51,017 bases of DNA from a plasmid. Location: the sequence record NZ_CP032820.1; one strand, 5' to 3'. Below the pieces are notes generated by a model that was given only the letters and a program-made list of their open reading frames with translations, did no database searches and had not been told where the DNA came from. Position 1 is the stretch's first letter, and the number at the start of each line of letters is the position of its first letter. Both the position numbers and the translations under genes were made by a program. This document shows, one piece after another, positions 1,219-33,115 of this stretch.

Positions 1219-1333
1219 AAAAACACTATTATTTGGAGTTCTTTGATAGGTTTGATAAATTAGCGGTTGGAGTAGGCGGCCATGGCCGCCTACTCCGACA
1301 CAACAAAACTAAACTTGACACAGTTCAGTTTAC
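1..1333 (+). mobile_element. IS256-family insertion sequence, partial at window start; right terminus about 1333
   Basis: The right terminal IR core ACTTGACACA (RC TGTGTCAAGT) at 1314-1323 matches the left IR core at 49664-49673. The element is about 1.39 kb if the window is circular. Confidence 0.6.
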
Positions 1334-2299
1334 ACTCCCTTTTACTGAAGTTTGCATTAATAAAGAATATACTACAGCTGATATATGCGCAACATATTGT
1401 GACGCTTGTGATTCATTTCCCTTGAAATCCTTAACAAATACCGCTAAGGTATAACTGATATTATTAGGCAGACATATATAGGCAACATCATTGTGAGCTG
1501 CAAGAACACCATTTTCATTAACATAACCTGAACCTGTCTTATGCGCTATAACAACCCCTTCTTTATCAAGAAGTGGAGCTGCTATCCTATCTACACCTGT
1601 TTTGCATTCTTTTAACGTATTCTTAATGAAACTTTGTTTCTCATCATCGATAAGACCTTCAGTAAACAAACGATTCATCAACATTGCAGCACCAAGAGGA
1701 GATGTATAGTTAGAGTAAGCCTTGTTATGGTCAGCCGACATTTCCTCTTCCGTATAAGCTATCTGAAAACTTGAACGAGGAATGAGTGTGGCTATAAAAC
1801 TATCTGTTTGAGCGACATTAACCATATCCTTAAACATAAGGTTGCTTGCATTGTTGTCACTCTGAGTAAGAGTATAACGCAGCAAATCTCTCACTGTCAA
1901 TGATATGACTGGCCCTGAATAATCTTTCAGCATAGGACTCCAAGTCTTTGGGTCAAGTTTATCCCTATTTATATTTACTAAGGTATCAAGTGAAATTCCT
2001 TTATTGTCAAAGTCATTACAAAGAGCTAATGCCTGATGAACCTTAAACACACTCATCATAGGATAAACACTCTTATTATTGACCTTAACCGTATCTCTGT
2101 TATTAACAATAACCGCCACACCAATTTCGCCAGGACAAGCTGAGACAATTTGAGAAATGCTATCAGTCAAAACATTTGTTAAAGGAGGATTTGCGCTATC
2201 TTTTGTCGCTGATTTATGGAACAATGAAAATACCAAGATGAAAATGCAAACTAAAGCTATACACAAAACTACGATTTGTTTTTTTCTGTTTTTTCCCAT
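1325..2299 (-). CDS. cfxA: Class A beta-lactamase, CfxA family (cefoxitin resistance)
   Basis: 324-aa protein with class A motifs S-V-F-K, S-D-N and K-T-G and a signal peptide. The sequence matches what I recall of Bacteroides/Prevotella CfxA nearly residue for residue. The E in KGNESQ is consistent with the CfxA2/3-type K272E substitution, which I recall only tentatively. Confidence 0.9.
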   Translation of the reverse strand: MGKNRKKQIVVLCIALVCIFILVFSLFHKSATKDSANPPLTNVLTDSISQIVSACPGEIGVAVIVNNRDTVKVNNKSVYPMMSVFKVHQALALCNDFDNKGISLDTLVNINRDKLDPKTWSPMLKDYSGPVISLTVRDLLRYTLTQSDNNASNLMFKDMVNVAQTDSFIATLIPRSSFQIAYTEEEMSADHNKAYSNYTSPLGAAMLMNRLFTEGLIDDEKQSFIKNTLKECKTGVDRIAAPLLDKEGVVIAHKTGSGYVNENGVLAAHNDVAYICLPNNISYTLAVFVKDFKGNESQASQYVAHISAVVYSLLMQTSVKGSVN

Positions 2300-3329
2300 G
2301 TTTATATTATTTATATTTGTTTGACGAGAATATCTTTATTTGCCGACAAAGGTACATAACTTTACGGAAAAATATGTTTCTAAAATATATAAATAGACAG
2401 CTGTGGGGAAAAATTAGATAATTAAAAAGGCTAAATGACTGAAAATAATCACTTAGCCTTTTAATCCGTACCCAGACCCGTACTTCGTAATTGCTGCGCC
2501 CATCATTCAAGACTGTCAAATCGGGTCTTTCCTGTCAAGCCAATGATGCCTATGCGTATGCCAAACACATGGATTACGGATTTCTCGTTCCGTGAACAAA
2601 CACTTTATCCGCAACTCTGCTATGTGGTGTATTGGCTTAACTCCATTTCTATGGGCAACACTTTTGTTGCAGATTTCAAGCAGCTTTTATCGAAATACCC
2701 ATCAGTAAGAACCCGTTTATTAGGCTTTCCTCATAATTGGGAACAAGAGCCTTTGTGGAGATAAAATAATTGCCCTGTTTCTTAAAAAGCACTGGGGCAA
2801 ACCAGCTCCGTCTTTAATTGTTTCCAATAAATGGATTGTTTCAAGCCCCTATAGAAAGAGAACAAAAATTCCTGTGTGAAAATTAATCTACGACAAGGAG
2901 CAAGCAAGGAGCAATATCAAACAAAAATCAATACCTTTGCAGTACATATGAGATAGACCAAAACAAAAGTGGAATATCGGAAACGAATAGCAAGGAAAAG
3001 AGAAGAAACGACCCAAGTTGATGTCCTTTTTGAGTTAATAATCAATAAAAGCGTTAAATCTTCACCTTTTAGAATGTGCAATTAAAAATAACAACCATAT
3101 TTCTGACTTATTATCTATAAAATATTGAGTAATAATCGGTTGTAAATACTTAGATTAAATACAAATTAACATTGATAGTAGCCTACAAAAAAAACGAGTA
3201 GGAGTTGACGAGTTGCTAGAAGTAATTAAAATGCAAAATGAAATTAATGAGCTAAGAAAAAATGGGAAATTAACTCCAGAAGACACTGTACGAATAAAAG
3301 ATTTATACCATAAATTAAATAAATAGCGT

Positions 3330-7619: not shown

Positions 7620-8261
7620 ATGAAAAAGAAAATAATTATACTAGCAGCCTTCGTTATTACATTTTTTACCGCATGTACTTCAACGCATATGATAACTTTC
7701 AGTAACGCTGAACTAAGCGACAAAGAAAAAGACATGATAGAAAATAATAGCAACTATTCAACCGCTTCAATAGTTGGTGGAAGTGCAAAATTAGTTAAGG
7801 AAGAAAGAGATAAAGCTATCCAAGAAAAGATAGAAGCTAGAAGAAATAAACTAAAAGCTATTGATGGCTTATCAATCTCCAGCTATAAAGATAAAAATGG
7901 AAAAGAACAGTTTAAAGCAACAGCTCAAAGTGAAATCTTATTCAAATTTGATTCATATGAATTAAATGAAGAAGCTCAAAAAATGCTTTCTGACTTATGT
8001 AATATCATTACTGAAATACCCAATACTAAGATTAAAATAATTGGGCATACTGACAATATAGGAGAAAAACAATACAATATCATACTTTCTAAAAATAGAG
8101 CAGCAGCAGTAGGAAATTACCTTAGAACCGCTGGTATAGAAACAAACAACATAACAGAAGATGGAAAAGGATATAGCGAACCCATTGCAGACAATACAAG
8201 TGAAGCTGGACGTGCTAAAAATAGGAGAGTAGAAATATTTATCACAAATGATGAATATTAA
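7620..8261 (+). CDS. OmpA-family (OmpA_C-like peptidoglycan-binding) lipoprotein
   Basis: Lipobox (FTAC) and C-terminal OmpA-like domain: FDSYEL..., TDNIGEKQYN..LS.NRAAAV..YL, RRVEI. Confidence 0.7.
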   Translation: MKKKIIILAAFVITFFTACTSTHMITFSNAELSDKEKDMIENNSNYSTASIVGGSAKLVKEERDKAIQEKIEARRNKLKAIDGLSISSYKDKNGKEQFKATAQSEILFKFDSYELNEEAQKMLSDLCNIITEIPNTKIKIIGHTDNIGEKQYNIILSKNRAAAVGNYLRTAGIETNNITEDGKGYSEPIADNTSEAGRAKNRRVEIFITNDEY

Positions 8262-8282
8262 AAAGAGAGATTTCTATTAATA

Positions 8283-8311
8283 AAGACCGGGAGATAAAAC
8301 TCTCGGTCTTT
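8283..8311 (+). terminator. Intrinsic terminator hairpin after the OmpA-family gene
   Basis: AAGACCGGGAG-ataaaac-CTCGGTCTT followed by a T-rich tract. Confidence 0.5.
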
Positions 8312-8321
8312 ATTAATAGTC

Positions 8322-9040
8322 TGGAAAGAAATTGATACCGTACTTTTCGGAGTTGCGGCATTGATGGGTAAACATGGCATGATGAAATGATACCGAATTA
8401 TCATTCCTGGCACACCCTGCAGAACGACCTTTTGATACCAAATACAAAAGCAGCCGGAAGCCGGACGCAAAAAATTGATACCATAAAACATTAGGGAAAA
8501 AGAACAGGAACAAAATACAATATTATATATATAAATAATATACGAATATATAATATATAAACAAATAATATATAATATATGATTAATATACTCCACTTCC
8601 AGAAAAAGCAACACGAAGAATCTTCTTTTCCCTAAAGTTCTTTGTGTCGTTTCTCTCTATATCTGAATACAGAAAAACGGCTGCATCATAAAAGAAAAGA
8701 CACCGACACCATTCAGGAACTACCGCCCATCGGCAAAAGGATTGCATCTAATTGATACCTTTTCTGCCTGCACTGGAGAGAAACCGGGAAGGTATTTGAT
8801 ACCGTACTTTTCCGGGTTCTGCCCGGCATGGACGATAAGAGAACATTATTATGATACCAAAAACCTTAGGGAAAAATAAAACCTCGGCAGTCTATAAACC
8901 TAAAACCATTTTTAACAAAAATAATTGTCCTATTATTTGCGACATTTATAGAAAATCACTATCTTTGAGTATTGAAAATAAAGAGATAAACAAACCTTTA
9001 AAGCTGGTTTGGCTGCCAGTATAAAGAACAGCAAACAAAA
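8322..9040. repeat. Composite intergenic repeat, copy 1: type B (8322-8510), AT-rich linker, type A (8626-8874), type C promoter module (8878-9040)
   Basis: Near-identical to the reverse-orientation copies at 25660-26160 and 30893-31630. Contains 7 TTGATACC/TGATACC boxes. Type A is bounded by TTTTCCCTAAAGTT/AACCTTAGGGAAAA. Confidence 0.9.
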
Positions 9041-9042
9041 TT

Positions 9043-9312
9043 ATGAATATCTTAAGATTTCTTTTAAGTAGCCTTTTATGGGCTATTGGTGGGGTTCTTG
9101 TATTAGCAATCTATGCGTATAGTGAACTAGTCTATTTGATTTTTATTTGCATTGCAATACTAGGATTAACCATCTACTACAGAAAATCCATAATAAAAAT
9201 GTACGCAGAAATCTTTAATGAGCTAGGAATCAATAAGTATGTTATACAAATTAAAAATCTAAAGAAATACAAAGAACCTATTTACAAACTAATCAATACA
9301 ATAGGTCTATGA
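9043..9312 (+). CDS. Small two-TM membrane protein
   Basis: 89-aa hydrophobic ORF whose ATG is the conserved 3' end of repeat type C (CAGCAAACAAAATTATG). Confidence 0.5.
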   Translation: MNILRFLLSSLLWAIGGVLVLAIYAYSELVYLIFICIAILGLTIYYRKSIIKMYAEIFNELGINKYVIQIKNLKKYKEPIYKLINTIGL

Positions 9313-9833: not shown

Positions 9834-10309
9834 AACTATATCACGGCTCAACAGTTACCGTCAAATCCCCTAATATACAGAAAGGGCGTAAAGCTACTGA
9901 CTTTGGAAAAGGATTCTATACGACAACTAATTTTGAACAGGCTAAGAAGTGGGCAATACTCAAAAGAAATCGGGAACATGGTAAAAAAGCGGTCGTTTCA
10001 GTTTATGAAGTCCCCGATAATATTCTTGATAGAGAGTTTTCAGTCCTTCGATTTGATGGGGCTACAAAAGAGTGGCTGGAGTTTGTAGTTAATAACCGCA
10101 GAGGAAAAGGAAAAAACAGCTATGATTTAATAATGGGACCCGTTGCCAATGACCAGTTATATGCAACAATCCGGCTTTATGAACAAGGTGTTGTTACGGC
10201 TGATGCAGCAATTGAAATGCTAAAGACCCATAAGCTTTTTAACCAACTTTCATTTCATACAGTGAAAGTTATTCCATTATTAAAATTCACAGAATCTATT
10301 GAAGTATAA
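9830..10309 (+). CDS. DUF3990-domain protein (LYHGS motif)
   Basis: MKLYHGS...DFGKGFYTT signature of DUF3990, the conserved partner of DUF3791. Confidence 0.6.
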   Translation: MKLYHGSTVTVKSPNIQKGRKATDFGKGFYTTTNFEQAKKWAILKRNREHGKKAVVSVYEVPDNILDREFSVLRFDGATKEWLEFVVNNRRGKGKNSYDLIMGPVANDQLYATIRLYEQGVVTADAAIEMLKTHKLFNQLSFHTVKVIPLLKFTESIEV

Positions 10310-10330
10310 ATCATAAAACTATAATGAACC

Positions 10331-10591
10331 ATGAATAAAGAAATGAGCTTGGATGTTGCGCTCGACATTATCGGGACACTCCGCATGATGAAGATAGATG
10401 AAATATCAGAAGAGAAGGATGAAAACAGAAAAAAAATACTGCAAAAAGAACTTTCTGTTCTCAACACAGAAGAAAAAATAGCAAATGGATTGTTGCAGTT
10501 TGAAGTTTCTGAAAATGTGCGCTTATCAGTCATGGATAAGATACAAAACTATTACGCACCTAAATTGAAAGCATATTATGCAACGCTATGA
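10331..10591 (+). CDS. Small acidic protein, candidate epsilon-like antitoxin
   Basis: 86 aa. Overlaps the zeta-toxin gene start by 14 bp, suggesting translational coupling. Confidence 0.4.
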   Translation: MNKEMSLDVALDIIGTLRMMKIDEISEEKDENRKKILQKELSVLNTEEKIANGLLQFEVSENVRLSVMDKIQNYYAPKLKAYYATL

Positions 10592-11444
10592 AGTAGAAGC
10601 CATCTTTGAACAAAAAAAAGATGGCTTATTTGAGGACATCAATATATCATCACAAAAGCCTATTGCTATAATCTTAGGTGGACAACCAGCTTGCGGAAAA
10701 AGCACTCTTATAAATGTTGCAAAGAAAGACCATCCTAACTTAGATTTTCTCACTGTTAATGGTGACCTTTACAGACAGTTTCACCCCAATAAGGAACTAA
10801 TAAAAGACCCTATTAAATACCCCATTGAAACCCAGATTTTTTCTAGCGTTTTTACAGAAAAACTAATAGAAGAAGCCATTAAACGGAAATGCAATATTAT
10901 TATAGAAGGAACTATGAGAAATCCAGATGTACCTTTAAAGACAGCACAAAAATTTAAAGATGCAGGATTTAGAGTTGAAGCATATATTATTGCAGCCCCC
11001 AAGGAGTTTACCCAACTAGGACTTTACAACAGGTATCAAGAAGAAGTACTAAGTAAAGGACAAGGACGATTAGCCGATATTGATTCACATAACAAAGCCG
11101 TAAATGGACTAATGAAATCTGCAAATCAATTATACAGTGATAAGGCTGTAGATAAGATTTCTATCCACACCTACTTAGCGAAAGAAAGAATTAAAGATTT
11201 CAATCTAGTAAATGGTGAATGGAGTTGCAAAAGTATGCCATCTATTTTTATAGATGAAAGTCGTTCAAAACAGATGAAGAATAAAGAAATACTTAACACT
11301 AACATTCAAAGAGGAAAAGAGCTTATTGAATCCGTAACGAATCCTGAAGTAAAAAAAGGAATGAAAGAAGCTCTGTCACAACTTCAATCTTCACTAGAAA
11401 AAGTTCAAAGACAAGAAAAAGGATTAAAAAAAGGTTTCTTCTGA
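10578..11444 (+). CDS. Zeta-toxin family P-loop kinase
   Basis: Walker A GGQPACGKST near the N-terminus, about 288 aa. Architecture matches PezT/zeta. Confidence 0.7.
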   Translation: MQRYEVEAIFEQKKDGLFEDINISSQKPIAIILGGQPACGKSTLINVAKKDHPNLDFLTVNGDLYRQFHPNKELIKDPIKYPIETQIFSSVFTEKLIEEAIKRKCNIIIEGTMRNPDVPLKTAQKFKDAGFRVEAYIIAAPKEFTQLGLYNRYQEEVLSKGQGRLADIDSHNKAVNGLMKSANQLYSDKAVDKISIHTYLAKERIKDFNLVNGEWSCKSMPSIFIDESRSKQMKNKEILNTNIQRGKELIESVTNPEVKKGMKEALSQLQSSLEKVQRQEKGLKKGFF

Positions 11445-15591: not shown

Positions 15592-16091
15592 ATGATGGAA
15601 CAAACATAGCTTCTGATGATATTATATTAAAGCCTAAATTCCGATATTGGTTAATGAAGAATTTCCTTTTAATCACATTAGCGATTTTCGTGTTCATTTT
15701 TAGTAAATATATAAGAGAACATGAATTATTAAAATTTATCAGTGGAACGATATTAGTATTGTTGATATTTATAATTTTCTACAGATATATTTCAATGTTA
15801 CTTTGTACAAAATGGATTATAACTAGAGAGCAAATAAAAATATATCAAGGAGTACTTTCAAAAAGGATTAACTACATAGAATTATATCGGGTATATGATT
15901 ACGAAGAAAAGCAAAGTTTTATCCAGTCTTTAATAAACAACACCAATATCTACATTTATTCTGGCGATAAATCAACACCAGAACTACTGATGAATGGTCT
16001 TAAAGCTAATAGTGATATAATTCAAACTATCAGAAATAGAGTAGAAGAACAAAAAAAGAAAAAAGGAATATATGAATTTACAAACAGATAA
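15588..16091 (+). CDS. Bacterial PH-domain (YdbS/YdbT-like) membrane protein
   Basis: Two N-terminal TM helices followed by a bPH_2-like region. Confidence 0.5.
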   Translation: MNDGTNIASDDIILKPKFRYWLMKNFLLITLAIFVFIFSKYIREHELLKFISGTILVLLIFIIFYRYISMLLCTKWIITREQIKIYQGVLSKRINYIELYRVYDYEEKQSFIQSLINNTNIYIYSGDKSTPELLMNGLKANSDIIQTIRNRVEEQKKKKGIYEFTNR

Positions 16092-16779
16092 TGATATGAA
16101 AAGAGTGCTTTTATTTTTTTCCCTAATGTTACTGTTGGGCAACATAAAAGGACTAGCACAATCTATTGTCATTGACCCGGCAATGATTGGAACATTGGTT
16201 TATTCCCATCAGGCGCAACAAGGTGTACTGAAAGATATACAAAGTGAGGAAACAAAAATCCGTAACTTTCAAATTTTAATTCAACAAAAAATGAGTCAAA
16301 TTCAATCCTTACAGGAAAAGACATACAACTATCTTTCTACAGTTAATGCAGTTGTGAAAAATGGAAAGGATATTATTTATGCTTCAACCTTAGCTAGAGA
16401 CATAGCTAAGTATCAATCCGAAGCAGCTAAATATGCAGTTGGAGACCCCAAATTATTAACCATAATTGCAAAAACAGAGTATGAACTTATCAGTCGAAGT
16501 GTAGATTTAATGATATACATAAATAATATAGCATTGCAAGGCGGTGAAAAAAATCTTATGGATAATAAGCAAAGGATAGATTTATGTATTCATGTGGTCA
16601 ATGAACTTAGACGAATGCGAGGACTTGCATACGCTGTATGCCGACAAATGAAATCCGCTAAAAGGGCTGGAGTACTAAAAACTCTTGTACCCGGACAATT
16701 TAAATATGTAAATAGTGGGAAACAAAAAGTAGATAATATTTTAAACGGCATTAAATGGATTAGTAAAGGAGGATATTAA
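16072..16779 (+). CDS. Secreted TraH/TraI-family-like protein; paralogue of 37929..38603
   Basis: Signal peptide. C-terminal block MDNKQRIDL..VNELRRMRGLAYAVCRQMKSAKRAGVLKTLVPGQFKY is nearly identical to the tra-operon gene at 37929. Confidence 0.5.
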   Translation: MNLQTDNDMKRVLLFFSLMLLLGNIKGLAQSIVIDPAMIGTLVYSHQAQQGVLKDIQSEETKIRNFQILIQQKMSQIQSLQEKTYNYLSTVNAVVKNGKDIIYASTLARDIAKYQSEAAKYAVGDPKLLTIIAKTEYELISRSVDLMIYINNIALQGGEKNLMDNKQRIDLCIHVVNELRRMRGLAYAVCRQMKSAKRAGVLKTLVPGQFKYVNSGKQKVDNILNGIKWISKGGY

Positions 16780-18973: not shown

Positions 18974-19085
18974 AATTGATACCTTTTCTGCCTGCACTGG
19001 AGAGAAACCGGGAAGGTATTTGATACCGTACTTTTCCGGGTTCTGCCCGGCATGGACGATAAGAGAACATTATTATGATACCAAA
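18962..19085. repeat. Partial type A repeat (TTGATACC boxes), forward orientation
   Basis: About 115 bp identical to the core of type A: TTGATACCTTTTCTGCCTGCACTGGAGAGAAACCGGGAAGGTATTTGATACCGTACTTTTCCGGGTTCTGCCCGG. Confidence 0.85.
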
Positions 19086-19147
19086 AAATAAAAACCAATA
19101 CCACTCTCACTGCATAAAAGAGTGGTATTTTCATTTGAATTAATAAA

Positions 19148-19375: not shown

Positions 19376-21331
19376 ATGGAAGAAAGCAAAGAATTACAAA
19401 AACTATATGGATTCATGCAAGCATTCATTTATATAACTGTTTGCATAGAGATTCTACTATTTGTTCATTTTCCCTTTAGTGAACAAATTATGCCCTTATT
19501 ATCAAAAATGGCAAAAATTCCTATCTATTCTAATATTCTTTATAGTAAACTATTTACATTCTTTATTATAATGGTTACTTGCATTGGAACACGTTCAAAA
19601 AAGGATTTAGAATTAGACCCGACTAAACAAATCATTTTTCCTTTAATCTTTGGATTCATAATGTTCTTTGGAAGTATATGCTTTCTTTTCTTTAAAGAAA
19701 AAGGAGAAACTAGTTTAGAATGGTATAATATAGCTTACATTATACTATCAATAATTGGAGCGACATTAATAAATTCAGCTCTAGATAACATTTCCAAACG
19801 TATTAAATCAAACTTTATGAAAGATAGATTTAATATAGAGAATGAAAGCTTTGAACAATCTAAAGACAAGGTAGAAACAGAATTCTCTGTCAATATTCCG
19901 ATGAAGTTTTTCTACAATAGAAAGTGGCATAATGGGTGGCTGAATATATGCAACTGTTTTCGTGGAACTTTCGTAATAGGAACGCCTGGAAGTGGTAAAT
20001 CTTTTTCTGTTATAAATTCTTTTATAAGACAACATTCAGCTAAAGGATTTGCAGAAGTTGTTTACGACTTCAAATTTCCTGAACTTGCCAAAATTGCATA
20101 TTATAATTATCAAAAGAACAAGCAATTAGGAAAAATACCAAGTAATTTCAAGTTCAATGTCATTAATTTTTCTGATATTGAATATAGTAGAAGAATAAAC
20201 CCATTGAAACGAGAATATATAGAAATCCTAGCAGATGCAACAGAAACGGCAGAAGCATTATATGAGAGTTTACAAAAAGGCGACAAAGGAAGTGGAGGTA
20301 ATAGCGATTTTTTTAAAACATCAGCAGTAAACTTGTTAGCAGCTTCTATTTATTTTTGGTCTAGATACGAGAATGGCAAATATTCAGATTTACCGCATGT
20401 ACTGGCTTTCCTTAATCAAGAATATGACGTACTTTTTAAAGTCCTCTTTTCCGAACCTGAATTAAAATCACTAGTTTCCCCATTTGAAGCTGCATATAAA
20501 TCAGGAGCAGTGGACCAATTAGAAGGACAGATGGCAAGTCTAAAAGTACAGTTATCAAGACTAGCAACTAAAGAATCTTTTTGGGTATTTAGTGGCAATG
20601 ATTTCAATTTAAAAGTATCAGATAAAAAAGACCCTAGTTATCTTATCATTGCAAATAACCCTAAAACACAAAGCATGAATAGTGCTTTAAATGCACTTAT
20701 CATTAACCGATTAACTAGACTTGTCAATACAAAAGGTAACTACCCTACTTCAATCATAGTAGATGAATGTCCCACATTATATTTTTATCAACTTGCAACA
20801 CTACTTTCTACTGCACGTAGCAATAAGGTTTCAATTTGTTTGGGATTACAGGAACTACCGCAATTAGAAGAACAATACGGCAAAGCTACCGCAAAAACTA
20901 TAACTTCTATTATAGGTAACACTTTATCCGGGCAAGCTAAAGCTCCTGAAACTTTAGATTGGCTACAAAAACTATTTGGAAAAGTTAAGCAAGTAAAAGA
21001 AGGTGTTACTATCAGAAGAAACGAAACAACAATTAATATGAATGAACAAATGGATTTTGTTATCCCGGCATCCAAAATATCTTCATTACAAGCTGGTACA
21101 TTAGTAGGGCAAGTTGCATTAGATTTTGGACAAGAAGATAATTTTCCAACAGCGATGTACCATTGCAAAACCAATTTAGATTTAAAAAAAATTAAGAAAG
21201 AAGAAGAAGCCTACAAAGAACTGCCAAAAGTATATAACTTTGGGACAGCAGATAATAGAGAGAAATTACTGCAAAAAAACTTTAAGAGAATATACGACGA
21301 AGTAGAAACAGTAATAGAACAATATGTATAA
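19376..21331 (+). CDS. Type IV coupling protein (VirD4/TraG/TraD family; Bacteroides MobC-type)
   Basis: N-terminal TM helices, Walker A GTPGSGKS, Walker B IIVDECP. 651 aa. Confidence 0.8.
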   Translation: MEESKELQKLYGFMQAFIYITVCIEILLFVHFPFSEQIMPLLSKMAKIPIYSNILYSKLFTFFIIMVTCIGTRSKKDLELDPTKQIIFPLIFGFIMFFGSICFLFFKEKGETSLEWYNIAYIILSIIGATLINSALDNISKRIKSNFMKDRFNIENESFEQSKDKVETEFSVNIPMKFFYNRKWHNGWLNICNCFRGTFVIGTPGSGKSFSVINSFIRQHSAKGFAEVVYDFKFPELAKIAYYNYQKNKQLGKIPSNFKFNVINFSDIEYSRRINPLKREYIEILADATETAEALYESLQKGDKGSGGNSDFFKTSAVNLLAASIYFWSRYENGKYSDLPHVLAFLNQEYDVLFKVLFSEPELKSLVSPFEAAYKSGAVDQLEGQMASLKVQLSRLATKESFWVFSGNDFNLKVSDKKDPSYLIIANNPKTQSMNSALNALIINRLTRLVNTKGNYPTSIIVDECPTLYFYQLATLLSTARSNKVSICLGLQELPQLEEQYGKATAKTITSIIGNTLSGQAKAPETLDWLQKLFGKVKQVKEGVTIRRNETTINMNEQMDFVIPASKISSLQAGTLVGQVALDFGQEDNFPTAMYHCKTNLDLKKIKKEEEAYKELPKVYNFGTADNREKLLQKNFKRIYDEVETVIEQYV

Positions 21332-21710
21332 CATTACATTACCAATTTTAGGCACAAGGTTAAAGCAAATCCGAGAGCATATAGGATATTCCCAAGCTCA
21401 ATTAGCAGAACAGCTGAACTGTAAACAAAATGCGATTTCAAATCTTGAACTAGGAAAAGGGGGCAGCCTAAAACTTTTATTTCAAGTGCTGAATTTTTAT
21501 TCTAACTATGTTTTTATAGATTTAATATTTAGTGAAAAGTTTTATCTGATTTCTAATACAGAAGAAGATGAAGCACAAAAAGCCAATTATAATTCTGTTA
21601 TAATAGAAATTATAAGACAATCAGAAAAAAACTATGAGGATGCTATGTCAAACGCTAAAAAAGAGCTAGAAGCTAATCTTCAAAAAGCCATCAATTTATT
21701 ACAGCCTTAA
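21324..21710 (+). CDS. XRE-family HTH transcriptional regulator
   Basis: HTH_XRE pattern LKQIREHIGYSQAQLAEQLNCKQNAISNLELGK. Overlaps the coupling-protein stop. Confidence 0.6.
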   Translation: MYNITLPILGTRLKQIREHIGYSQAQLAEQLNCKQNAISNLELGKGGSLKLLFQVLNFYSNYVFIDLIFSEKFYLISNTEEDEAQKANYNSVIIEIIRQSEKNYEDAMSNAKKELEANLQKAINLLQP

Positions 21711-21761: not shown

Positions 21762-21940
21762 AAGAATTTGTTGATACCGTACTTTTCGGAGTTCCGGCAC
21801 TGATGGGCAAACATGGCATGATGAAATGATACCGAATTATCATTCCTGGCACACCCTGCAGAACGACCTTTTGATACCAAATACAAAAAGCAGCCGGAAG
21901 CCGGACGCAAAAAATTGATACCATAAAACAAAAAAAGAAA
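21762..21940. repeat. Type B repeat, solitary copy
   Basis: Near-identical to 8322-8510. Four TTGATACC/TGATACC boxes. Sits between convergent genes. Confidence 0.85.
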
Positions 21941-22001
21941 AGTGTTTTCTAAACTAGCCTAACCAAAATCTTTTGTTTCACAAAACGACCCTTTTTCTGT
22001 A

Positions 22002-22442
22002 CTAAAGAAAACGGTTCTTTTTTTGCTTAATCAAAGAACTTATGTCGCTACGGTGTTTAGTTAACCAATCTTCCAAAATAAACGAAACTAAAGATGAAAT
22101 AGGTATTTTGGCTTTAGCTTTGAGCAACCCAAACACCTCTTTTACATCTGTATCAACATATAGAACTTCCTTGCAATTATAATTTTTTCCTTTAATGTAC
22201 TCTAATAAGTCCGTCAAATCCATTTCACTAGAGCCATTAAAATTAAAAACTTCCGAAGAAGTTGTTTCCATTTCTACATGAAGTGGTTCTTTCTCCTCTT
22301 CAACTTCATATTTAGCTTCTTGAATAGGAGCTTCATTTATACTACTCCCATGCAATTCTTCACCTCTTATCATTTTAGCTATTTCCAGAACACTAGAAAT
22401 ACCTTCATTTTGCTTTTTCCTTAATTTATCAGCCATGTGCAA
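22002..22442 (-). CDS. DUF3408-like protein (TraB position, downstream of ParA)
   Basis: 146 aa, acidic N-terminus, conserved C-terminal block. Gene order relaxase-parA-this gene. Confidence 0.4.
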   Translation of the reverse strand: MHMADKLRKKQNEGISSVLEIAKMIRGEELHGSSINEAPIQEAKYEVEEEKEPLHVEMETTSSEVFNFNGSSEMDLTDLLEYIKGKNYNCKEVLYVDTDVKEVFGLLKAKAKIPISSLVSFILEDWLTKHRSDISSLIKQKKNRFL

Positions 22443-22494
22443 ATATATACAATAAATGAATAACTTTATAACAAATATCTATTAAAAGAATATT

Positions 22495-23118
22495 TTATTT
22501 TATTGCTCCTTCTTGAATGATATAATCATAAGCATTCTTCACCTTATCAATACACTCATTACTAATTGCTAATGTATTTATACGTTCCATAGCAACAGAA
22601 GCTGGTATTTCATCTGTAACAAAACCAACTTGCTTAAGAATATCAACTACCTGTTCTTTTGTTTCATATCTTACCGCAGTTCTCATATTGTTAGGTAAAA
22701 AGAATATTTTGGCTTTTACATTTAAATACTGTAACACTTGGATAAAAAAACCTGTACTATCCATTGTAAATTTATCGTATTTAAATGGGCATATTATTAT
22801 ATCCGCAGCTTTAAGAATAGTTCCCAGAGCATCATCATCAATCTTACCAGGCAAATCTATTAATAGATTTCCTTGCTCAACCTTAGTAAAATCACTAATA
22901 ATTTTAGCAACATTAGATATATCGGTTTGTATAACCTCATATTTAGGTTCATTATCATAGGTCGCAATATCTTCTTTTCTTCTATCCGATAATGAACGCT
23001 GAAAATCTAAATCCAATACTAGAACTTCTTTTCCTTTTTCTACTAGATAGTTGGCAAATTGTATGCAATTAGTCGTTTTACCACAACCGCCTTTCTGATT
23101 CCCAAATAATATTATCAT
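22495..23118 (-). CDS. ParA/MinD-family ATPase (TraA-like)
   Basis: Deviant Walker A KGGCGKTT at residues 9-16. Confidence 0.8.
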   Translation of the reverse strand: MIILFGNQKGGCGKTTNCIQFANYLVEKGKEVLVLDLDFQRSLSDRRKEDIATYDNEPKYEVIQTDISNVAKIISDFTKVEQGNLLIDLPGKIDDDALGTILKAADIIICPFKYDKFTMDSTGFFIQVLQYLNVKAKIFFLPNNMRTAVRYETKEQVVDILKQVGFVTDEIPASVAMERINTLAISNECIDKVKNAYDYIIQEGAIK

Positions 23119-24754: not shown

Positions 24755-24820
24755 TATAATTTATTCATATAATAAATATTCAAATATTATATATTCATAT
24801 ATTATTTATATATATAATAT

Positions 24821-25069
24821 TTTTCCCTAAAGTTTTTGGTATCATAATAATGTTCTCTTATCGTCCATGCCGGGCAGAACCCGGAAAAGTACGGTATCAA
24901 ATACCTTCCCGGTTTCTCTCCAGTGCAGGCAGAAAAGGTATCAATTAGATGCAATCCTTTTGCTGATGGGCGATAGTTCCTGAATGGTGTCGGTGTCTTT
25001 TCTTTTATGATGCAGCCGTTTTCCTGTATTCAGGTATAGAGAGAAACGACACAAGGAACTTTAGGGAAA
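24821..25069. repeat. Type A repeat, solitary MITE-like copy with perfect 14-bp TIRs
   Basis: TTTTCCCTAAAGTT at 24821-24834 and AACTTTAGGGAAAA at 25056-25069. The interior is identical to other type A copies and carries three GGTATCA(A) boxes. Confidence 0.85.
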
Positions 25070-25130
25070 AGAAATAGTAACGCTGTCTTTATCACTAAAA
25101 TTATATATATAAATATTATATATACATATA

Positions 25131-25660: not shown

Positions 25661-26160
25661 AGATAAGTTTTTTTGGTATCATAATAATGTTCTCTTATCG
25701 TCCATGCCGGGCAGAACCCGGAAAAGTACGGTATCAAATACCTTCCCGGTTTCTCTCCAGTGCAGGCAGAAAAGGTATCAATTAGATGCAATCCTTTTGC
25801 TGATGGGCGATAGTTCCTGAATGGTGTCGGTATCGTTTCTTTTATGATGCAGCCGTTTTTCTGTATTCAGATATAGAGAGAAACGACACAAAGAACTTTA
25901 GGGAAAAGAAGATTCTTCGTGTTGCTTTTTCTGGAAGTGGAGTATATTAATCATATATTATATGTTTATAGGTTCATATATTATATATTATATATTCATA
26001 TATTATTTATATATAGTGTTTTCTCTTTGTTCTTTTTCCCTATAGTTTTATGGTATCAATTTTTTGTGTCCGGCTTCCGGCAGCTTTTTGTATTTGGTAT
26101 CAAAAAGGCGTTCTTCAGAACATATCGAGCATGATAATTCGGTATCAATTTCTTTCCCTA
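25660..26160. repeat. Composite repeat copy 2, reverse orientation: type A (25672-25907), linker, type B (26030-26160)
   Basis: Near-identical to the other copies. Nine GGTATCA(A) boxes. Confidence 0.9.
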
Positions 26161-26165
26161 CAGTA

Positions 26166-26590: not shown

Positions 26591-26591
26591 T

Positions 26592-30892: not shown

Positions 30893-31630
30893 AAGAAGCA
30901 ATGTTTCATGATTTTGTTTGCTGTTCTTTATACTGGCAGCCAAACCAGCTTTAAAGGTTTGTTTATCTCTTTATTTTCAATACTCAAAGATAGTGATTTT
31001 CTATAAATGTCGCAAATAATAGGACAATTATTTTTGTTAAAAATGGTTTTAGGTTTATAGACTGCCGAGGTTTTATTTTTCCCTAAGGTTTTTGGTATCA
31101 TAATAATGTTCTCTTATCGTCCATGCCGGGCAGAACCCGGAAAAGTACGGTATCAAATACCTTCCCGGTTTCTCTCCAGTGCAGGCAGAAAAGGTATCAA
31201 TTAGATGCAATCCTTTTGCCGATGGGCGGTAGTTCCTGAATGGTGTCGGTGTCTTTTCTTTTATGATGCAGCCGTTTTCCTGTATTCAAGTATAGAGAGA
31301 AACGACACAAGGAACTTTAGGGAAAAGAAGATTTTTCGTGTTGCTCTTTCTGGAAGTGGAGTATATTAATCATATATTATATGTTTATAGGTTCATATAT
31401 TATATATTCATATATTATTTATATATAGTGTTTTCTCTTTGTTCTTTTTCCCTATAGTTTTATGGTATCAATTTTTTGTGTCCGGCTTCCGGCAGCTTTT
31501 TGTATTTGGTATCAAAAGGTCGTTCTACAGGGTGTGCCAGGAATGATAATTCGGTATCATTTCATCATGCCATGTTTACCCATCAATGCCGCAACTCCGA
31601 AAAGTACGGTATGAATTTCTTTCCCTATAG
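30893..31630. repeat. Composite repeat copy 3, reverse orientation: type C (30893-31075), type A (31076-31326), linker, type B (31445-31630)
   Basis: Near-identical to copies 1 and 2. The type C ATG here is followed by only a 27-codon ORF, so it is a decayed copy. Confidence 0.9.
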
Positions 31631-31922: not shown

Positions 31923-32933
31923 TTAAGCAACCTTTGTATTTTTCTCTTCTTCAACTTCTCCCACATCTAGCCTTATATTTAGATGCTGGGCTATGAATTT
32001 ACTACCTTTAATAGCATCTGCCAATACAGTAAATAAAAATTTAGGTTCTTCTTTTATTGCTTTGCACCATGATTTTAAATAAGCCGCATTTTCTTCTCTG
32101 ACGGTTACAGAAATACCCAAATATACACCAGACAAAGCCGATATTAATTCTGCTACAAGTTCTTCACGCCCATAATTGAATTTATCATTTTCATAAAATC
32201 CTTTTCGATTTAGTCTATTTTTAACACCTGTACTATGTCCCATTTCATGTAATTCTGTACCATAAAAACTTTCTCCGTCCTTAAATTGGCTCTTTAAAGG
32301 TAAAGTAATGCTATCATTTGATATTGAATAAAACGCACTATCACTAGAAACCGTTTGAATAGGACATACCCAATTTTGATTCTTATTCATTTCATCAAGT
32401 ATTGGATTTACATACATTTCTTTCTCTTCTTGTGGCTGTTCCTCTCCTGAAAATTTAGCCTTTAATATATCCCATCTATTGGGATATTTTTCCGCAAAGT
32501 TTGTTTGGTCTAAATTAAAAACTTGGAAATATTTTGTATAAGCTGCTAAACGGTATTCTTTTTGTTCTTCTTCTGATAATTTGTTATATTCATCATATGA
32601 AATTTTTTCATTTGTCTGACGATGATAAGCACAAAATAATGTGTAATAAACAGGAAAAGCAACAGCACCTTTTAGAACATTAATACCTTCGTTTCGTGCT
32701 TGATTGAATGTCAAAAAAACAGGAGTTTGATAATTATATTTTTCACACAAAAAATAAAGTAAAAAAGCGTTTCCACCACTATAAGTACGACCTGTTAAAT
32801 TTTGTGGTAAAAAGTTCTGTTTAGAGTTGACTTTAGAGAACCAAGGTTTTTGCCAATTCATAGACAAGCTTTCAATTTTTTCAACCATAAGGTTTACAAA
32901 CTTCTCTGCATTTTTATCAAAAGTAGATTTCAT
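31923..32933 (-). CDS. ArdC-like antirestriction protein (ssDNA-binding N-domain plus zincin-like HExxH metalloprotease domain)
   Basis: 336 aa with HEMGH at the C-terminal domain. The N-terminal region resembles the DUF1738/ArdC ssDNA-binding domain. Confidence 0.65.
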   Translation of the reverse strand: MKSTFDKNAEKFVNLMVEKIESLSMNWQKPWFSKVNSKQNFLPQNLTGRTYSGGNAFLLYFLCEKYNYQTPVFLTFNQARNEGINVLKGAVAFPVYYTLFCAYHRQTNEKISYDEYNKLSEEEQKEYRLAAYTKYFQVFNLDQTNFAEKYPNRWDILKAKFSGEEQPQEEKEMYVNPILDEMNKNQNWVCPIQTVSSDSAFYSISNDSITLPLKSQFKDGESFYGTELHEMGHSTGVKNRLNRKGFYENDKFNYGREELVAELISALSGVYLGISVTVREENAAYLKSWCKAIKEEPKFLFTVLADAIKGSKFIAQHLNIRLDVGEVEEEKNTKVA

Positions 32934-33115
32934 AATTTTGTTTGCTGTTCTTTATACTGGCAGCCAAACCAGCTTTAAAAGTTTATTTATCTCTTTATTT
33001 TCAATACTCAAAGATAGTAATTTTCTATAAATGTCGCAAATAATAAGACAATTATTTTTGTTAAAAATAGTTTATAATTGGCTGATTTTTAAGGTATTAT
33101 CTTTTCCCTAAAGTT
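32928..33115. repeat. Type C promoter/5'-UTR module, solitary copy driving the ArdC-like gene
   Basis: About 150 bp near-identical to 8878-9040 (RC) and 30893-31075. Ends in TTTTCCCTAAAGTT at 33102-33115. Confidence 0.85.

What the first reader, a model, noticed from the sequence alone, without database searches (positions are those of the whole stretch)
8322..9040. Dispersed modular repeat family carrying more than 30 TTGATACC boxes at nearly every operon boundary, a candidate global operator/centromere regulon
Three complete composite copies of about 560 bp lie at 8322-8878 (forward), 25660-26160 (reverse) and 31076-31630 (reverse). Three partial copies lie at 18962-19085 (type A core), 21762-21940 (type B only) and 24821-25069 (type A only). 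Each module contains 3-4 copies of the octamer TTGATACC, RC GGTATCAA, often as TTGATACCGTACTTTTC(C)GG followed by a GC-rich hairpin such as CCGGGTTCTGCCCGG. All complete copies lie between functional modules. The 8322 copy precedes the small-membrane-protein/DUF3791-DUF3990/zeta operon. Copy 2 precedes the mobA-relaxase-parA operon. Copy 3 precedes the small-ORF/rep operon. The partial A copy precedes the coupling-protein operon. The B-only copy lies between the convergent XRE and traB-like genes. This is the pattern of a dispersed operator set for a replicon-wide regulator, as with KorB sites on IncP-1 plasmids, or of centromere-like sites for the adjacent orphan ParA (22495..23118) and its DUF3408-like partner. 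It does not look like random selfish-repeat insertion. The XRE regulator at 21324..21710, which abuts a B copy, is another candidate binder. The six-frame ORFs inside these repeats reuse the same peptides because the DNA is repeated and are almost certainly not genes.
Basis: partly seen in the sequence, partly recalled or inferred. Interest (0 to 1): 0.8.

Follow-up and report, generated by a model that had tools for sequence, protein, structure and literature searches.

The report
Phased GATACC-box arrays on Bacteroides plasmids
A widespread family of gut Bacteroides conjugative plasmids carries, at the borders between its gene blocks, conserved arrays of a 6-7 bp DNA box spaced exactly 44 or 55 bp apart. 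These look like docking sites for a plasmid-encoded regulator and appear not to have been described before.

Summary
The repeats are real. The window is a 49,710-bp circular pBF9343-type conjugative plasmid. It has three composite copies and three partial copies of two modules, A and B, at the stated coordinates. The count is off: TTGATACC occurs 25 times (1.6 expected); only the 7-mer TGATACC exceeds 30, at 36 copies, 28 of them in repeats.

The functional unit is an array of 3-4 GATACC boxes with 44/45 or 55/56 bp between centres, all multiples of 11. Relatives whose relaxases are only 49-54% identical (pBFY46, pBACSA01, metagenomic contigs) keep the box, the spacing and the positions in the backbone, while the DNA between boxes is unrelated. 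Two lineages, one with 31% relaxase identity, keep the architecture but use GACACC throughout.

Copies are homogenised within each plasmid. They are not MITEs, oriT or iterons.

The best candidate reader is the XRE regulator encoded next to the coupling-protein gene. Two of its predicted base-contact residues change together with the box: N36/N40 with GATACC, A or I at 36 and K or R at 40 with GACACC.

A global operator regulon is the most likely function. A centromere role is not excluded. No binding has been shown. I found no prior description.

The parts
8282..8311 (+). Terminator-like hairpin (AAAGACCGGGAG/CTCTCGGTCTTT) directly after the OmpA-family gene that ends the tra operon. The B module starts 12 bp later.
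   Evidence: Sequence read. An analogous hairpin follows the XRE gene.
8323..8500 (+). B module, copy 1: four TGATACC boxes at 8333, 8388, 8433 and 8476 (spacing 55, 45, 43). It contains CTGCAG-N11-GATACC and the palindrome CCGGAAGCCGG, and ends in TTAGGGAAAAAG.
8501..8622 (+). AT-rich spacer bracketed by an inverted pair of the TAGGGAAA motif (8492 on +, 8627 on -).
8623..8878 (+). A module, copy 1: three boxes at 8753, 8797 and 8852 (spacing 44, 55) and the hairpin CCGGGTTCTGCCCGG. It is bounded by inverted TTTTCCCTAAAG / CTTAGGGAAAAA.
8903..9047 (+). P module: a canonical Bacteroides promoter (-33 TTTG at 8936-8939, -7 TATCTTTG at 8960-8967), a 75-nt leader with a small conserved hairpin (9004-9019), and the start codon at 9043 of an 89-aa membrane ORF. 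That ORF heads the DUF3791/DUF3990/zeta-toxin operon.
   Evidence: Hairpin covariation: 5 pairs, 2 compensatory, 0 broken.
18974..19088 (+). A-core copy (boxes at 18977, 19021, 19076), 100% identical to the cores of the other A copies. It lies between a lipoprotein gene and the orf74/coupling-protein genes.
19098..19132 (+). Intrinsic-terminator-like hairpin ATACCACTCT/AGAGTGGTAT plus a T-run, between the A core and the orf74 ATG at 19148. It is kept with compensatory changes in pBFY46, pBACSA01 and L134.
21324..21710 (+). XRE-family HTH gene. It overlaps the 3' end of the coupling-protein gene (19376-21331). It is the best candidate reader of the boxes. Recognition helix: Q35 N36 A37 I38 S39 N40 L41 E42.
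21771..21942 (+). B-only copy (boxes at 21772, 21827, 21872, 21916) between the convergent XRE and orfX genes, just after a terminator hairpin (21717-21748). Relatives carry their cargo insertions at its distal end.
22002..23118 (-). ParA-family ATPase (22495-23118) and the 144-aa orfX (22002-22436). This is a TraA/TraB-like pair and a second, weaker candidate reader or partition pair.
24818..25073 (-). A-only copy (boxes at 24838, 24893, 24937) between mobC and the relaxase gene. An AT-rich tract and a -7 box at 24723 follow.
25670..26152 (-). Composite copy 2: A 25670-25910 (boxes at 25675, 25730, 25774), AT-rich 25911-26033, B 26034-26152 (boxes at 26052, 26096, 26141). It lies between the oriV iterons and the mobC promoter (-7 at 25614).
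30905..31624 (-). Composite copy 3: P 30905-31049, A 31074-31329 (boxes at 31094, 31149, 31193), AT-rich, B 31446-31624 (boxes at 31464, 31508, 31553, plus a degenerate TTCATACC). It lies between the ArdC-like gene and the RHH-84/small-ORF/rep operon.
32929..33073 (-). P-only copy that ends at the start codon of the ArdC-like gene (32933). A TAGGGAAA motif lies just upstream, at 33103.

Best explanation
**What it is.** The TTGATACC boxes are the conserved core (GATACC, 6-7 bp) of protein-binding arrays. Each array has 3-4 boxes whose centres are 44/45 or 55/56 bp apart. That is 4 or 5 turns at 11 bp per turn, so all boxes face one side of the helix.

**Where it sits.** The arrays sit in two repeat modules, A and B. 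These lie at operon boundaries of the plasmid backbone, typically after the terminator of one operon and 60-115 bp upstream of the next promoter. In three places that promoter is the shared P cassette.

**Shown.** The arrays are an ancient, vertically inherited feature of a clade of Bacteroidales conjugative plasmids. They are kept nearly identical within each plasmid by gene conversion.

**Inferred.**
- A plasmid-encoded factor reads all arrays. The best candidate is the XRE-family protein encoded directly behind the coupling-protein gene.
- An XRE oligomer would place one helix-turn-helix on each box and wrap or loop the DNA.
- This would co-ordinately set promoter activity or read-through at the boundaries of the transfer, mobilisation, replication/leading-region and toxin-antitoxin operons. 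That would make it a replicon-wide regulon with feedback from the coupling-protein/XRE operon.
For: - **Enrichment.** 25 octamers against 1.6 expected. GATACC is the top 44/55-phased hexamer in an unbiased scan of the window and of L008, L009, L011, L136, pBFY46 and pBACSA01.
- **Spacing.** Over eight plasmids the spacings are 44 (55 times), 45 (19) and 55 (40), with 99/100 where the middle box lacks the leading T of TGATACC (inverted or degenerate).
- **Spacers.** DNA between boxes is unrelated between lineages, at 25-38% ungapped identity, and single boxes can be inverted with the spacing kept. This argues for a DNA-level site rather than an RNA-level one.
- **Conservation.** Box columns are more conserved than the rest of the modules within the family: 25/28 against 74/151 invariant columns in B.
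- **Box switch.** L134/L196 and the far more distant NZ_CP103211.1 (relaxase 31% identical) have the same architecture with GACACC in every array.
- **Negative control.** Array-less relatives carry GATACC only at chance level.
- **Synteny.** Arrays recur after the OmpA gene, upstream of the coupling-protein gene, downstream of XRE and upstream of mobC.
- **Promoters.** Bacteroides-type promoters lie 60-115 bp downstream of A arrays.
- **XRE co-variation.**
  - N/S36 and N40 occur in all five GATACC lineages.
  - A36/K40 occur in L134 and I36/R40 in L322.
  - These positions align without gaps to Gln29 and Gln33 of the 434 repressor.
  - From established structural work, Gln28, Gln29 and Gln33 are the base-contacting residues.
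  - Asn-to-adenine and Lys/Arg-to-guanine are the classic pairings for a T:A to C:G change.
- **Other candidates fail.**
  - The MobC beta-strand does not co-vary.
  - The recombinase is absent from pBFY46.
  - orfX keeps Lys in L322.
Against: - No binding or expression data exist.
- Isolated hexamers 44-55 bp apart are not how XRE dimers usually bind. The oligomeric state is unknown.
- The co-variation rests on only two GACACC lineages.
- L013 has a GATACC-type XRE helix but no arrays in the 15.5 kb available.
- Pontibacter and Chondrinema XRE homologues carry R40 but have no arrays within 20 kb on either side. XRE therefore has some array-independent role, and its helix could be conserved for that reason.
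- The A-core and B-only copies are not followed by a recognisable promoter.
- Box orientation relative to genes is uniform within a plasmid but opposite in L322. This argues against a simple promoter-proximal logic.
- A centromere role, or a dual role, fits the same data.
Confidence: 0.5

Rival explanations
1. The arrays are centromere-like partition or segrosome sites. The ParA-family ATPase (22495-23118) and its downstream partner orfX (22002-22436) would use the dispersed arrays to segregate the plasmid, or to bring it to the transfer apparatus as VirC1/VirC2 do. Any gene regulation would be a side effect, as with omega/delta of inc18 plasmids or KorB/IncC of RK2.
For: - It is the only ParA on the backbone. 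It is small (207 aa) and has no N-terminal HTH.
- orfX is conserved with it in every relative. orfX has a conserved basic N-terminus and a C-terminal segment with a strand-helix-helix pattern resembling ParG.
- The arrays are the most conspicuous repeated binding sites apart from the iterons.
- An A copy lies upstream of the relaxase-parA-orfX operon.
- pBF9343 runs at about 7 copies per chromosome (PMC6927303), so active partition is plausible.
- orfX has K/R at the first beta-strand position in all GATACC lineages and T in L134/L196.
Against: - orfX keeps Lys in the GACACC plasmid L322. It has the GATACC-type strand in the array-less L012, L195 and L135.
- The RHH fold and ParG homology are not supported: no PDB hit, AF2 pLDDT 51.6, HHalign probability 2%.
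- The pair resembles TraA/TraB (DUF3408) of Bacteroidetes conjugative elements, whose role is unknown.
- Known type Ib centromeres have closely packed repeats, not boxes 44-55 bp apart.
Confidence: 0.2
2. The repeats are mainly duplicated promoter/terminator cassettes and recombination scaffolds. Homologous or short-motif-mediated recombination (at TAGGGAAA junctions) spreads and homogenises them and lets cargo operons plug in. The boxes would be read by a host factor or would merely be part of an upstream promoter element.
For: - Extra module copies flank cargo insertions in relatives, for example L001 8053-8542 / 10093-10764 and L007 23989-24411 / 25614-26037.
- Synteny breakpoints and cargo junctions fall at 8357-8803, 21930/21955 and 26152.
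- Evolution is concerted: A copies average 95.9% identity within a plasmid, 94.5% for the same slot in other plasmids and 94.3% otherwise.
- TAGGGAAA occurs 24 times against 2 expected and bounds the modules.
- The P cassette is shared by three operons.
Against: - Recombination alone does not explain why only the hexamer and its 11n spacing survive when spacers are completely replaced between lineages.
- It also does not explain why all arrays of a lineage switch box together.
- A host factor would not be expected to change specificity between plasmids of the same host genus. L322 is from Bacteroides ovatus.
- pBFY46 has arrays but no P cassette.
Confidence: 0.15
3. The arrays act at the RNA level. 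They would be part of leaders or 3' UTRs bound by an RNA-binding protein or small RNA that controls termination or antitermination at the adjacent hairpins.
For: - Boxes have one orientation relative to genes within a plasmid.
- Arrays sit next to terminator-like hairpins. The hairpin before the coupling-protein gene overlaps or repeats the box sequence and shows compensatory changes.
- No promoter is visible between that hairpin and the coupling-protein operon.
Against: - Individual boxes are inverted within arrays of L008, L009, L136 and L134 with the spacing kept.
- The sense-strand orientation is opposite in L322.
- B modules lie downstream of terminators.
- There is no Rfam match. Whole-module folding is only weakly better than shuffles, z = -2.2 and -2.6.
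Confidence: 0.07
4. The repeats are ordinary MITE-like selfish elements that transposed into intergenic regions.
For: The A module is bounded by 11-12 bp inverted TTTTCCCTAAAG / CTTTAGGGAAAA, which resemble terminal inverted repeats. There are multiple copies per replicon.
Against: - Blastn finds the modules only in the 30 PLSDB plasmids of this family.
- Slots are syntenic across deep lineages.
- Only the boxes and their spacing are conserved between lineages.
- The same inverted motif forms a compact hairpin after arrays in L322.
- I saw no target-site duplications in the flanks I read, but did not test for them systematically.
Confidence: 0.03

Closest known systems
Omega repressor and its heptad arrays on inc18 plasmids (pSM19035). 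Comparison from established literature, not tested here.
   Same: - A 7-bp asymmetric box is used in either orientation, in arrays upstream of several promoters dispersed over the plasmid.
- The controlled operons include a zeta-toxin operon and the ParA operon.
- One reader co-ordinates copy control, partition and toxin-antitoxin expression.
   Different: - Omega heptads are contiguous, with a 7-bp period. Here the boxes are isolated and 44/55 bp apart.
- Omega is a ribbon-helix-helix protein. The best candidate here is an XRE helix-turn-helix protein.
- No homology was shown.
Rco (XRE-type) conjugation repressor of pLS20, with multi-box operators and DNA looping. From literature.
   Same: An XRE-family HTH protein with a C-terminal oligomerisation part recognises several short asymmetric boxes in mixed orientation. 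It relies on helical phasing and DNA looping to control conjugation genes.
   Different: - Rco acts at two operators at one divergent promoter. Here there are five to eight arrays spread over the whole replicon.
- The spacing is different, and the oligomeric state of this XRE protein is unknown.
KorB/OB (with KorA, IncC) global regulon of IncP-1 plasmids, and StbA/stbDR of R388. From literature.
   Same: Dispersed copies of one operator lie in front of or between backbone operons and tie transfer, replication and maintenance together. There is a link to a ParA-type ATPase.
   Different: - OB is a 13-bp palindrome read by a ParB-family protein.
- stbDR are 9-bp repeats packed 11 bp apart.
- Here single hexamers are 44/55 bp apart, and no ParB family member turned up among the proteins examined.
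CUP (conserved upstream) promoter repeats of the IncN pKM101 leading region. From literature; this is the analogue of the P module only.
   Same: A conserved cassette of more than 100 bp, carrying a promoter and leader, is repeated in front of several leading-region and anti-restriction genes. Here these are the ArdC-like gene, the RHH-84/small-ORF operon and the toxin-antitoxin operon.
   Different: - The sequences are unrelated and the promoter is of the Bacteroides -33/-7 type.
- P has its own small covarying leader hairpin.
- P and the arrays can occur independently: pBFY46 has arrays but no P.

Membership tests
MITE / selfish dispersed repeat | Copies at unrelated positions, also outside the element family, with terminal inverted repeats and target-site duplications | tested here: not met
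   - Blastn finds the modules only in the 30 PLSDB plasmids of this family.
- Slots are syntenic in plasmids with 31-54% relaxase identity.
- Only the boxes and their spacing are conserved between lineages.
- Inverted TAGGGAAA ends exist, but the same pair is a local hairpin in L322.
- I saw no target-site duplications but did not test for them systematically.
IncP-1 KorB/OB-type operator set | Palindromic operator of about 13 bp read by a ParB-family protein | tested here: not met
   The box is an asymmetric 6-7-mer, used singly and in either orientation. No ParB-family hit appeared among the ten candidate proteins scanned. Not every ORF was scanned.
IncP-1 KorB/OB-type operator set | The same operator dispersed at many backbone promoters or boundaries of one replicon | tested here: met
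   Nine arrays lie at six boundaries in the window. There are 5-11 matching places per plasmid in 30 relatives.
inc18 omega/heptad system | 7-bp box functional in direct or inverted orientation, upstream of several promoters | tested here: met
   This covers sequence architecture only; function was not tested.
inc18 omega/heptad system | Contiguous heptads bound co-operatively by a ribbon-helix-helix dimer | tested here: not met
   - Boxes are 44/45 or 55/56 bp apart.
- RHH candidates exist: RHH-84 (Pfam RHH_1 E = 0.0026, below cut-off), orfX and MobC.
- None of them could be tied to the box.
Type Ib partition system (ParF/ParG-like) | Small Walker-type ParA without an N-terminal HTH | tested here: met
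   A 207-aa protein. It matches AAA_31/CbiA and NCBIfam ParA_partition (E = 2.5e-21, below the equivalog cut-off).
Type Ib partition system (ParF/ParG-like) | Ribbon-helix-helix centromere-binding partner encoded downstream of parA | tested here: inconclusive
   - orfX is always downstream of parA.
- There is no Pfam or PDB sequence hit.
- The AF2 model has pLDDT 51.6.
Type Ib partition system (ParF/ParG-like) | Centromere of closely spaced repeats that co-evolve with the binding protein | tested here: not met
   The spacing is 44/55 bp. The orfX beta-strand does not track box type in L322, L012, L195 or L135.
XRE-type multi-box operator with looping (pLS20 Rco-like) | XRE/Cro-type HTH regulator encoded on the conjugative element | tested here: met
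   - Pfam HTH_3/HTH_31.
- PDB profile hits to the ICEBs1 Xre-family regulator and the 434 repressor.
- The gene is coupled to the coupling-protein gene in all relatives, including Cytophagales plasmids.
XRE-type multi-box operator with looping (pLS20 Rco-like) | Several short asymmetric boxes, mixed orientation, helically phased | tested here: met
XRE-type multi-box operator with looping (pLS20 Rco-like) | The regulator binds the boxes; its specificity residues match the box | tested here: inconclusive
   The co-variation of positions 36 and 40 with GATACC/GACACC is consistent. It rests on two variant lineages, with exceptions in L013 and the Cytophagales plasmids. Binding itself is not testable with these tools.
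Origin of transfer (oriT) copies | Inverted repeat followed by a MOBP-type nick sequence next to the relaxosome genes, conserved with the relaxase | tested here: not met
   - That structure is single-copy in the mobC leader (about 25545-25585, - strand): GTGTTTTTGT..ACAAAAAC, then ATCTTGCC.
- It is conserved in the array-less L012 and L013.
- The arrays lack it.
Rep iterons | Repeats of about 22 bp matching the oriV iteron | tested here: not met
   The iterons are AGGGACAAAAACCCAACTTCTT at 26158-26594. They share no similarity with the GATACC box. Only the separate TAGGGAAA junction motif resembles the start of the iteron.
Frpo/ssi-type single-strand promoters of leading regions | Long, stable single-strand hairpin of about 300 nt | tested here: not met
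   Single-strand DNA folds of 8323-8900 on both strands give z = -2.2 and -2.6, with no long hairpin.

The most novel reading that the evidence does not exclude
The phased single-box arrays are a new kind of plasmid boundary element. An oligomer of the coupling-protein-linked XRE protein, perhaps with the plasmid's HU-family protein acting on the GC-rich palindromes between boxes, would wrap about 100-150 bp of DNA. The resulting nucleoprotein particle would mark every operon border. It would insulate transcription units, gate terminator read-through into the coupling-protein operon, and serve as the pairing and gene-conversion scaffold (and possibly the ParA cargo) that keeps all copies identical.
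Probability: 0.15. Interest if true: 0.8.

Novelty: new variant of a known kind. Interest (0 to 1): 0.62.

Why it matters
pBF9343-type plasmids are among the commonest conjugative plasmids of human gut Bacteroides and Phocaeicola. The relaxase cluster alone has thousands of member sequences. They carry resistance and competition cargo; this window holds a class A beta-lactamase gene on a Tn4555-like transposon (Pfam and my recollection of Tn4555; not tested by sequence). To my knowledge almost nothing is known about how they regulate transfer, replication and maintenance.

A conserved box, a fixed spacing rule, a lineage-specific box switch and a named candidate reader with two predicted specificity residues turn this into a directly testable regulon. 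It could be tested with EMSA or DAP-seq, box swaps and an N40K mutant.

It would also give a portable operator/regulator pair for Bacteroides engineering. It explains why these plasmids are hard to assemble and why they are modular, since near-identical 0.5-0.7 kb repeats occur in both orientations.

Tried and rejected
- **Rfam scan of the whole window:** no family.
- **Single-strand promoter (Frpo/ssi) idea:** folds are only weakly better than shuffles.
- **oriT copies:**
  - The A-module hairpin TTCTGCCCGG resembles the RP4/L013 nick region, but that similarity is not conserved in relatives.
  - The real oriT is a single-copy structure in the mobC leader.
- **Serine-recombinase res or hix-like sites:**
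  - Half-site similarity (TATCAAAA) was considered.
  - It was rejected because the boxes are not paired and the recombinase is absent from pBFY46.
  - Direct copies flanking rep would also be resolved away.
- **IHF-consensus reading (WATCAANNNNTTR):** it fits only some boxes, and position 8 is not conserved in relatives. The HU arms show no informative change.
- **MobC as reader:** no co-variation.
- **Methylation-motif idea:** none of the four box strings (GATACC, GGTATC, GACACC, GGTGTC) appears in the main text of the B. fragilis methylome paper.
- **XRE-based scans:** the metagenome scan returned almost only close relatives, all with GATACC arrays. The viral scan returned nothing relevant.
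- **AF2 of orfX as a monomer:** too low in confidence for a fold search.
- **A '44/55-phased' GTAAGA signal in the Pontibacter plasmid:** an artefact of a 14-bp tandem repeat.
- **Literature searches** for pBF9343, pBFY46, DUF3408 and the box sequence: none of the papers returned or checked describes these repeats.
Full report
**What the window is**

Bases 1-1307 are identical to 49711-51017, so the window is a circle of 49,710 bp read past its start. A search of PLSDB with 8200-9100 finds 30 records. All are Bacteroides or Phocaeicola plasmids, 29 of them typed as conjugative, and they include pBF9343 of B. fragilis NCTC 9343. Each record has 5-11 matching places.

Gene order matches these relatives:
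- a Bacteroidetes-type tra operon ending in an OmpA-family gene;
- a DUF3791/DUF3990/zeta-toxin operon;
- a DUF4099/DUF3945/toprim/HU block;
- the coupling-protein gene with an overlapping XRE gene;
- on the other strand, ArdC, a string of small ORFs, a Rep_3 initiator with 22-bp iterons, mobC, relaxase, ParA and a 144-aa ORF that I call orfX.

**Check of the observation**

It resolves into four pieces:
- **B**, about 178 bp, with four boxes.
- **An AT-rich spacer**, about 120 bp.
- **A**, about 256 bp, with three boxes.
- **P**, 145 bp.

P holds a textbook Bacteroides promoter (TTTG-N20-TATCTTTG, -7 box at 8960), a 75-nt leader and the start codon. P occurs three times. Each copy ends at an ATG: the 89-aa ORF at 9043, the RHH-84 gene and the ArdC-like gene.

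TTGATACC occurs 25 times against 1.6 expected, not more than 30. The 7-mer TGATACC occurs 36 times, 28 of them inside repeats. Every spacing between neighbouring boxes inside the modules is 43-45 or 55 bp. The small ORFs that run through the repeats have no counterpart in distant relatives, so they are not genes.

**Anatomy around the copies**

B modules follow operon ends:
- after a terminator-like hairpin behind the OmpA gene (8282-8311);
- behind the XRE gene (21717-21748);
- after the iterons;
- after ArdC.

A modules precede promoters. P lies 108 bp after the last box of copy 1, the mobC promoter 61 bp after copy 2, and a -7 box 115 bp after the A-only copy. The A core in front of the coupling-protein operon is instead followed by a terminator-like hairpin (19098-19132), with no recognisable promoter before the ATG.

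The true oriT is a single-copy structure in the mobC leader: an inverted repeat GTGTTTTTGT..ACAAAAAC followed by ATCTTGCC. It is conserved in relatives that have no arrays. The arrays are therefore not oriT, and they share nothing with the iterons.

A second motif, TAGGGAAA(A), occurs 24 times against 2 expected. It marks the module borders.

**Relatives within the family**

In seven PLSDB plasmids the copies sit in the same slots. Extra copies flank cargo insertions. Synteny breaks between plasmids fall at 8357-8803, 21930/21955 and 26152.

Box columns are more conserved than the rest of the modules. Mean column conservation is 0.99 against 0.89-0.92, and in B 25 of 28 box columns are invariant against 74 of 151 others.

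A copies in one plasmid are slightly more alike (95.9%) than copies in the same slot of different plasmids (94.5%). That value is no higher than for unrelated slots (94.3%). The copies are therefore being homogenised.

**Distant relatives: the decisive comparison**

I fetched metagenomic contigs and two complete plasmids through relaxase homologues. The complete plasmids are pBFY46 and pBACSA01.

- An unbiased scan for hexamers recurring at 43-45 or 54-56 bp puts GATACC first in the window and in L008, L009, L011, L136, L197, pBFY46 and pBACSA01, whose relaxases are 49-54% identical to the window's.
- Between these lineages the DNA between boxes is unalignable: 25-38% ungapped identity, which is chance level.
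- The 44/55 rule and the slots persist: after OmpA, before the coupling-protein gene, after XRE and before mobC.
- Single boxes can be inverted with the spacing unchanged.
- L134 and L196 (relaxase 45%) have the same architecture with GACACC in every array.
- So does NZ_CP103211.1, a Bacteroides ovatus plasmid with a relaxase only 31% identical: 25 GACACC, phased at 44/55.
- L012/L195, L135 and L013 show no arrays in the parts available. There GATACC occurs at chance level, which serves as a negative control.

Conservation of a 6-bp word and an 11n spacing, replacement of everything else, and a switch of the word in all arrays of a lineage at once together indicate binding sites for one trans-acting factor that travels with the plasmid.

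**Which protein reads the boxes**

- **MobC:** its beta-strand varies among GATACC lineages and is the same in L134 as in L136.
- **Serine recombinase:** missing from pBFY46.
- **HU arms:** uninformative.
- **orfX:**
  - It has K/R at the first strand position in GATACC lineages and T in L134/L196.
  - It keeps K in the GACACC plasmid L322 and in the array-less L012, L195 and L135.
  - Its supposed ribbon-helix-helix fold could not be confirmed.
  - Its DUF3408 relationship is sub-threshold, although databases use the name.
- **XRE protein:**
  - It is translationally coupled to the coupling-protein gene in every relative, even in Pontibacter and Chondrinema plasmids.
  - Its recognition helix is Q-N/S-A-I-S-N-L/I-E in all five GATACC lineages, Q-A-V-I-S-K-L-E in L134 and Q-I-T-V-S-R-M-E in L322.
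  - The helix aligns without gaps to the 434 repressor, so positions 35, 36 and 40 correspond to Gln28, Gln29 and Gln33.
  - From established structural work, not tested here, those are the base-contacting residues.
  - The two positions that change are therefore the ones expected to set specificity. Asn to Lys/Arg is the classic partner of an A-to-G change, which is the difference between GATACC and GACACC on the lower strand.

The case has three weaknesses. It rests on two variant lineages. L013 has the GATACC-type helix without arrays in its 15.5 kb. The Cytophagales homologues, with R40, have no arrays nearby.

**Likely mechanism**

- **Shown:** phased, conserved, co-evolving box arrays at operon borders.
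- **Inferred:** a plasmid-encoded reader, most likely XRE.
- **Inferred:** an oligomer that places one HTH per box on one face of the DNA and wraps or loops it.
- **Inferred:** the effect is co-ordinated control of the promoters, or of read-through, at the borders of the transfer, mobilisation, replication/leading-region and toxin-antitoxin operons. Feedback would come through the coupling-protein/XRE operon, which itself sits behind an array and a terminator.

A centromere or relaxosome-recruitment role for ParA/orfX, or a dual role as with omega or KorB, remains possible. A role as recombination scaffold is compatible and partly shown (homogenisation, cargo junctions). It does not explain the box conservation.

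**The P module**

P is a separate shared promoter cassette. It is conserved in the GATACC lineages except pBFY46. It has an invariant AATAATTGTC..ATTTGCGACATT around the -33 element. It also has a small leader hairpin with two compensatory pairs and none broken in ten distinct sequences. It resembles the CUP repeats of IncN plasmids in logic, not in sequence.

**Novelty**

Full-text searches for pBF9343, pBFY46, DUF3408 with conjugative elements, Bacteroides plasmid repeats and the box itself returned no paper describing these elements. The library does not cover most subscription journals.

In kind this is a plasmid-wide operator set, of which several are known: KorB, omega, StbA, ArdK/CUP and Rco. 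The form is unusual: isolated hexamers at 44/55 bp, a lineage-specific box code, and a reader coupled to the coupling-protein gene. I rate it a new variant of a known kind.

Noticed in passing
window 41183-49710 plus 1-3156: An 11.7-kb insertion absent from all relatives compared, with GC 44-55% against about 32% for the backbone.
- It encodes a tyrosine integrase with an arm-binding domain, HTH_17 proteins and an AAA_25 protein.
- It also encodes a DUF6371/Zn-ribbon primase-like protein, an IS256 (Mutator)-family transposase (1-1218) and a class A beta-lactamase (1325-2299, - strand).
- From my recollection of Tn4555, it looks like a Tn4555/cfxA-type mobilisable transposon.
- It interrupts the small gene between traK and traM (89 aa here, 143 aa in relatives), which might impair self-transfer.
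   Followed up: partly
window 30582-30833 (- strand): The first gene behind composite copy 3 encodes an 83-aa ribbon-helix-helix-like protein in relatives (MKKEFTLRLDD...). It is frameshifted here by one A missing from an A-run at the start (ATGAAAAAGAG against ATGAAAAAAGAG). This is either a sequencing error or a real loss of a candidate regulator.
   Followed up: partly
window 1-1307 and 49711-51017: There is a terminal redundancy of 1307 bp, so the replicon is a 49,710-bp circle. PLSDB record NZ_CP054001.1 happens to have the same length as the window (51,017 bp) but carries different cargo and is not the same sequence.
   Followed up: yes
window 26158-26594: oriV lies downstream of the rep gene. 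Five tandem 22-bp iterons (AGGGACAAAAACCCAACTTCTT) sit next to rep and two more at about 26178 and 26225, with a TAGGGAAA motif between them. L011 has identical iterons. L134 and L013 have variants (GGGACAAATTCCCAA, GGGACAATTTTGTTAAC).
   Followed up: partly
window about 25545-25585 (- strand): Probable oriT in the mobC leader: the inverted repeat GTGTTTTTGTGGACACAAAAAC, then CAA, then ATCTTGCC. It resembles the MOBP nick region and is conserved in L012, L013 and pBFY46.
   Followed up: partly
window 19098-19132; L320 25893-25925; L321 20614-20640; L134 about 950-990: A terminator-like hairpin directly before the coupling-protein operon is kept in four lineages with compensatory changes. In three lineages its arms contain ATACC/GGTAT, and in two of those (pBFY46 and pBACSA01) the 5' arm overlaps the last box. 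No promoter is visible between it and the start codon, which suggests regulated read-through.
   Followed up: partly
window 8492, 8627, 8867, 24822, 25062, 25899, 26035, 26153, 26292, 31078, 31318, 31447, 31620, 33103 and others; L322 30672-30712, 33248-33288: The motif (A)AC(T)TTAGGGAAAA(G) occurs 24 times against 2 expected. It marks all module borders and brackets the AT-rich spacer as an inverted pair. In the distant plasmid L322 the same inverted pair forms a compact hairpin plus a T-run right after each array. It also occurs in the array-less L013. Its function is unknown.
   Followed up: partly
window 16091-16130 / 38600-38639 and 16551-16743 / 38381-38573: Two 'plasmid transfer protein' genes (16072-16779 and 37929-38603) are about 72% similar in DNA over part of their length, and they share a 40-bp near-identical stretch that lies at the 5' end of the first gene and the 3' end of the second. 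They may be paralogues, one in the tra operon and one in the DNA-processing block.
   Followed up: no
L004+L005 (NZ_CP018939.1, 73,970 bp): This relative carries large parts of the backbone twice, partly inverted. Junctions lie at or near the repeat modules (window equivalents 8515, 21930, 26152). It is either a real recombination product between repeats or a long-read assembly artefact; many of its genes are missing from the table.
   Followed up: no
L323 5374-5600 (Pontibacter actiniarum plasmid NZ_CP021236.1): About sixteen tandem copies of the 14-bp unit GTAAGAATTAATAA lie between mobC and the relaxase gene. This is the same slot where the window has its A-only copy.
   Followed up: no
window 8417, 21856; L008, L011, L136, L134: The palindrome CTGCAG lies 10-11 bp upstream of a box (CTGCAG-N10/11-GAYACC) in several lineages, including a GACACC one. 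It is strongly enriched in L008 (17 against 2 expected) but absent from L009. It could be a second protein site.
   Followed up: partly
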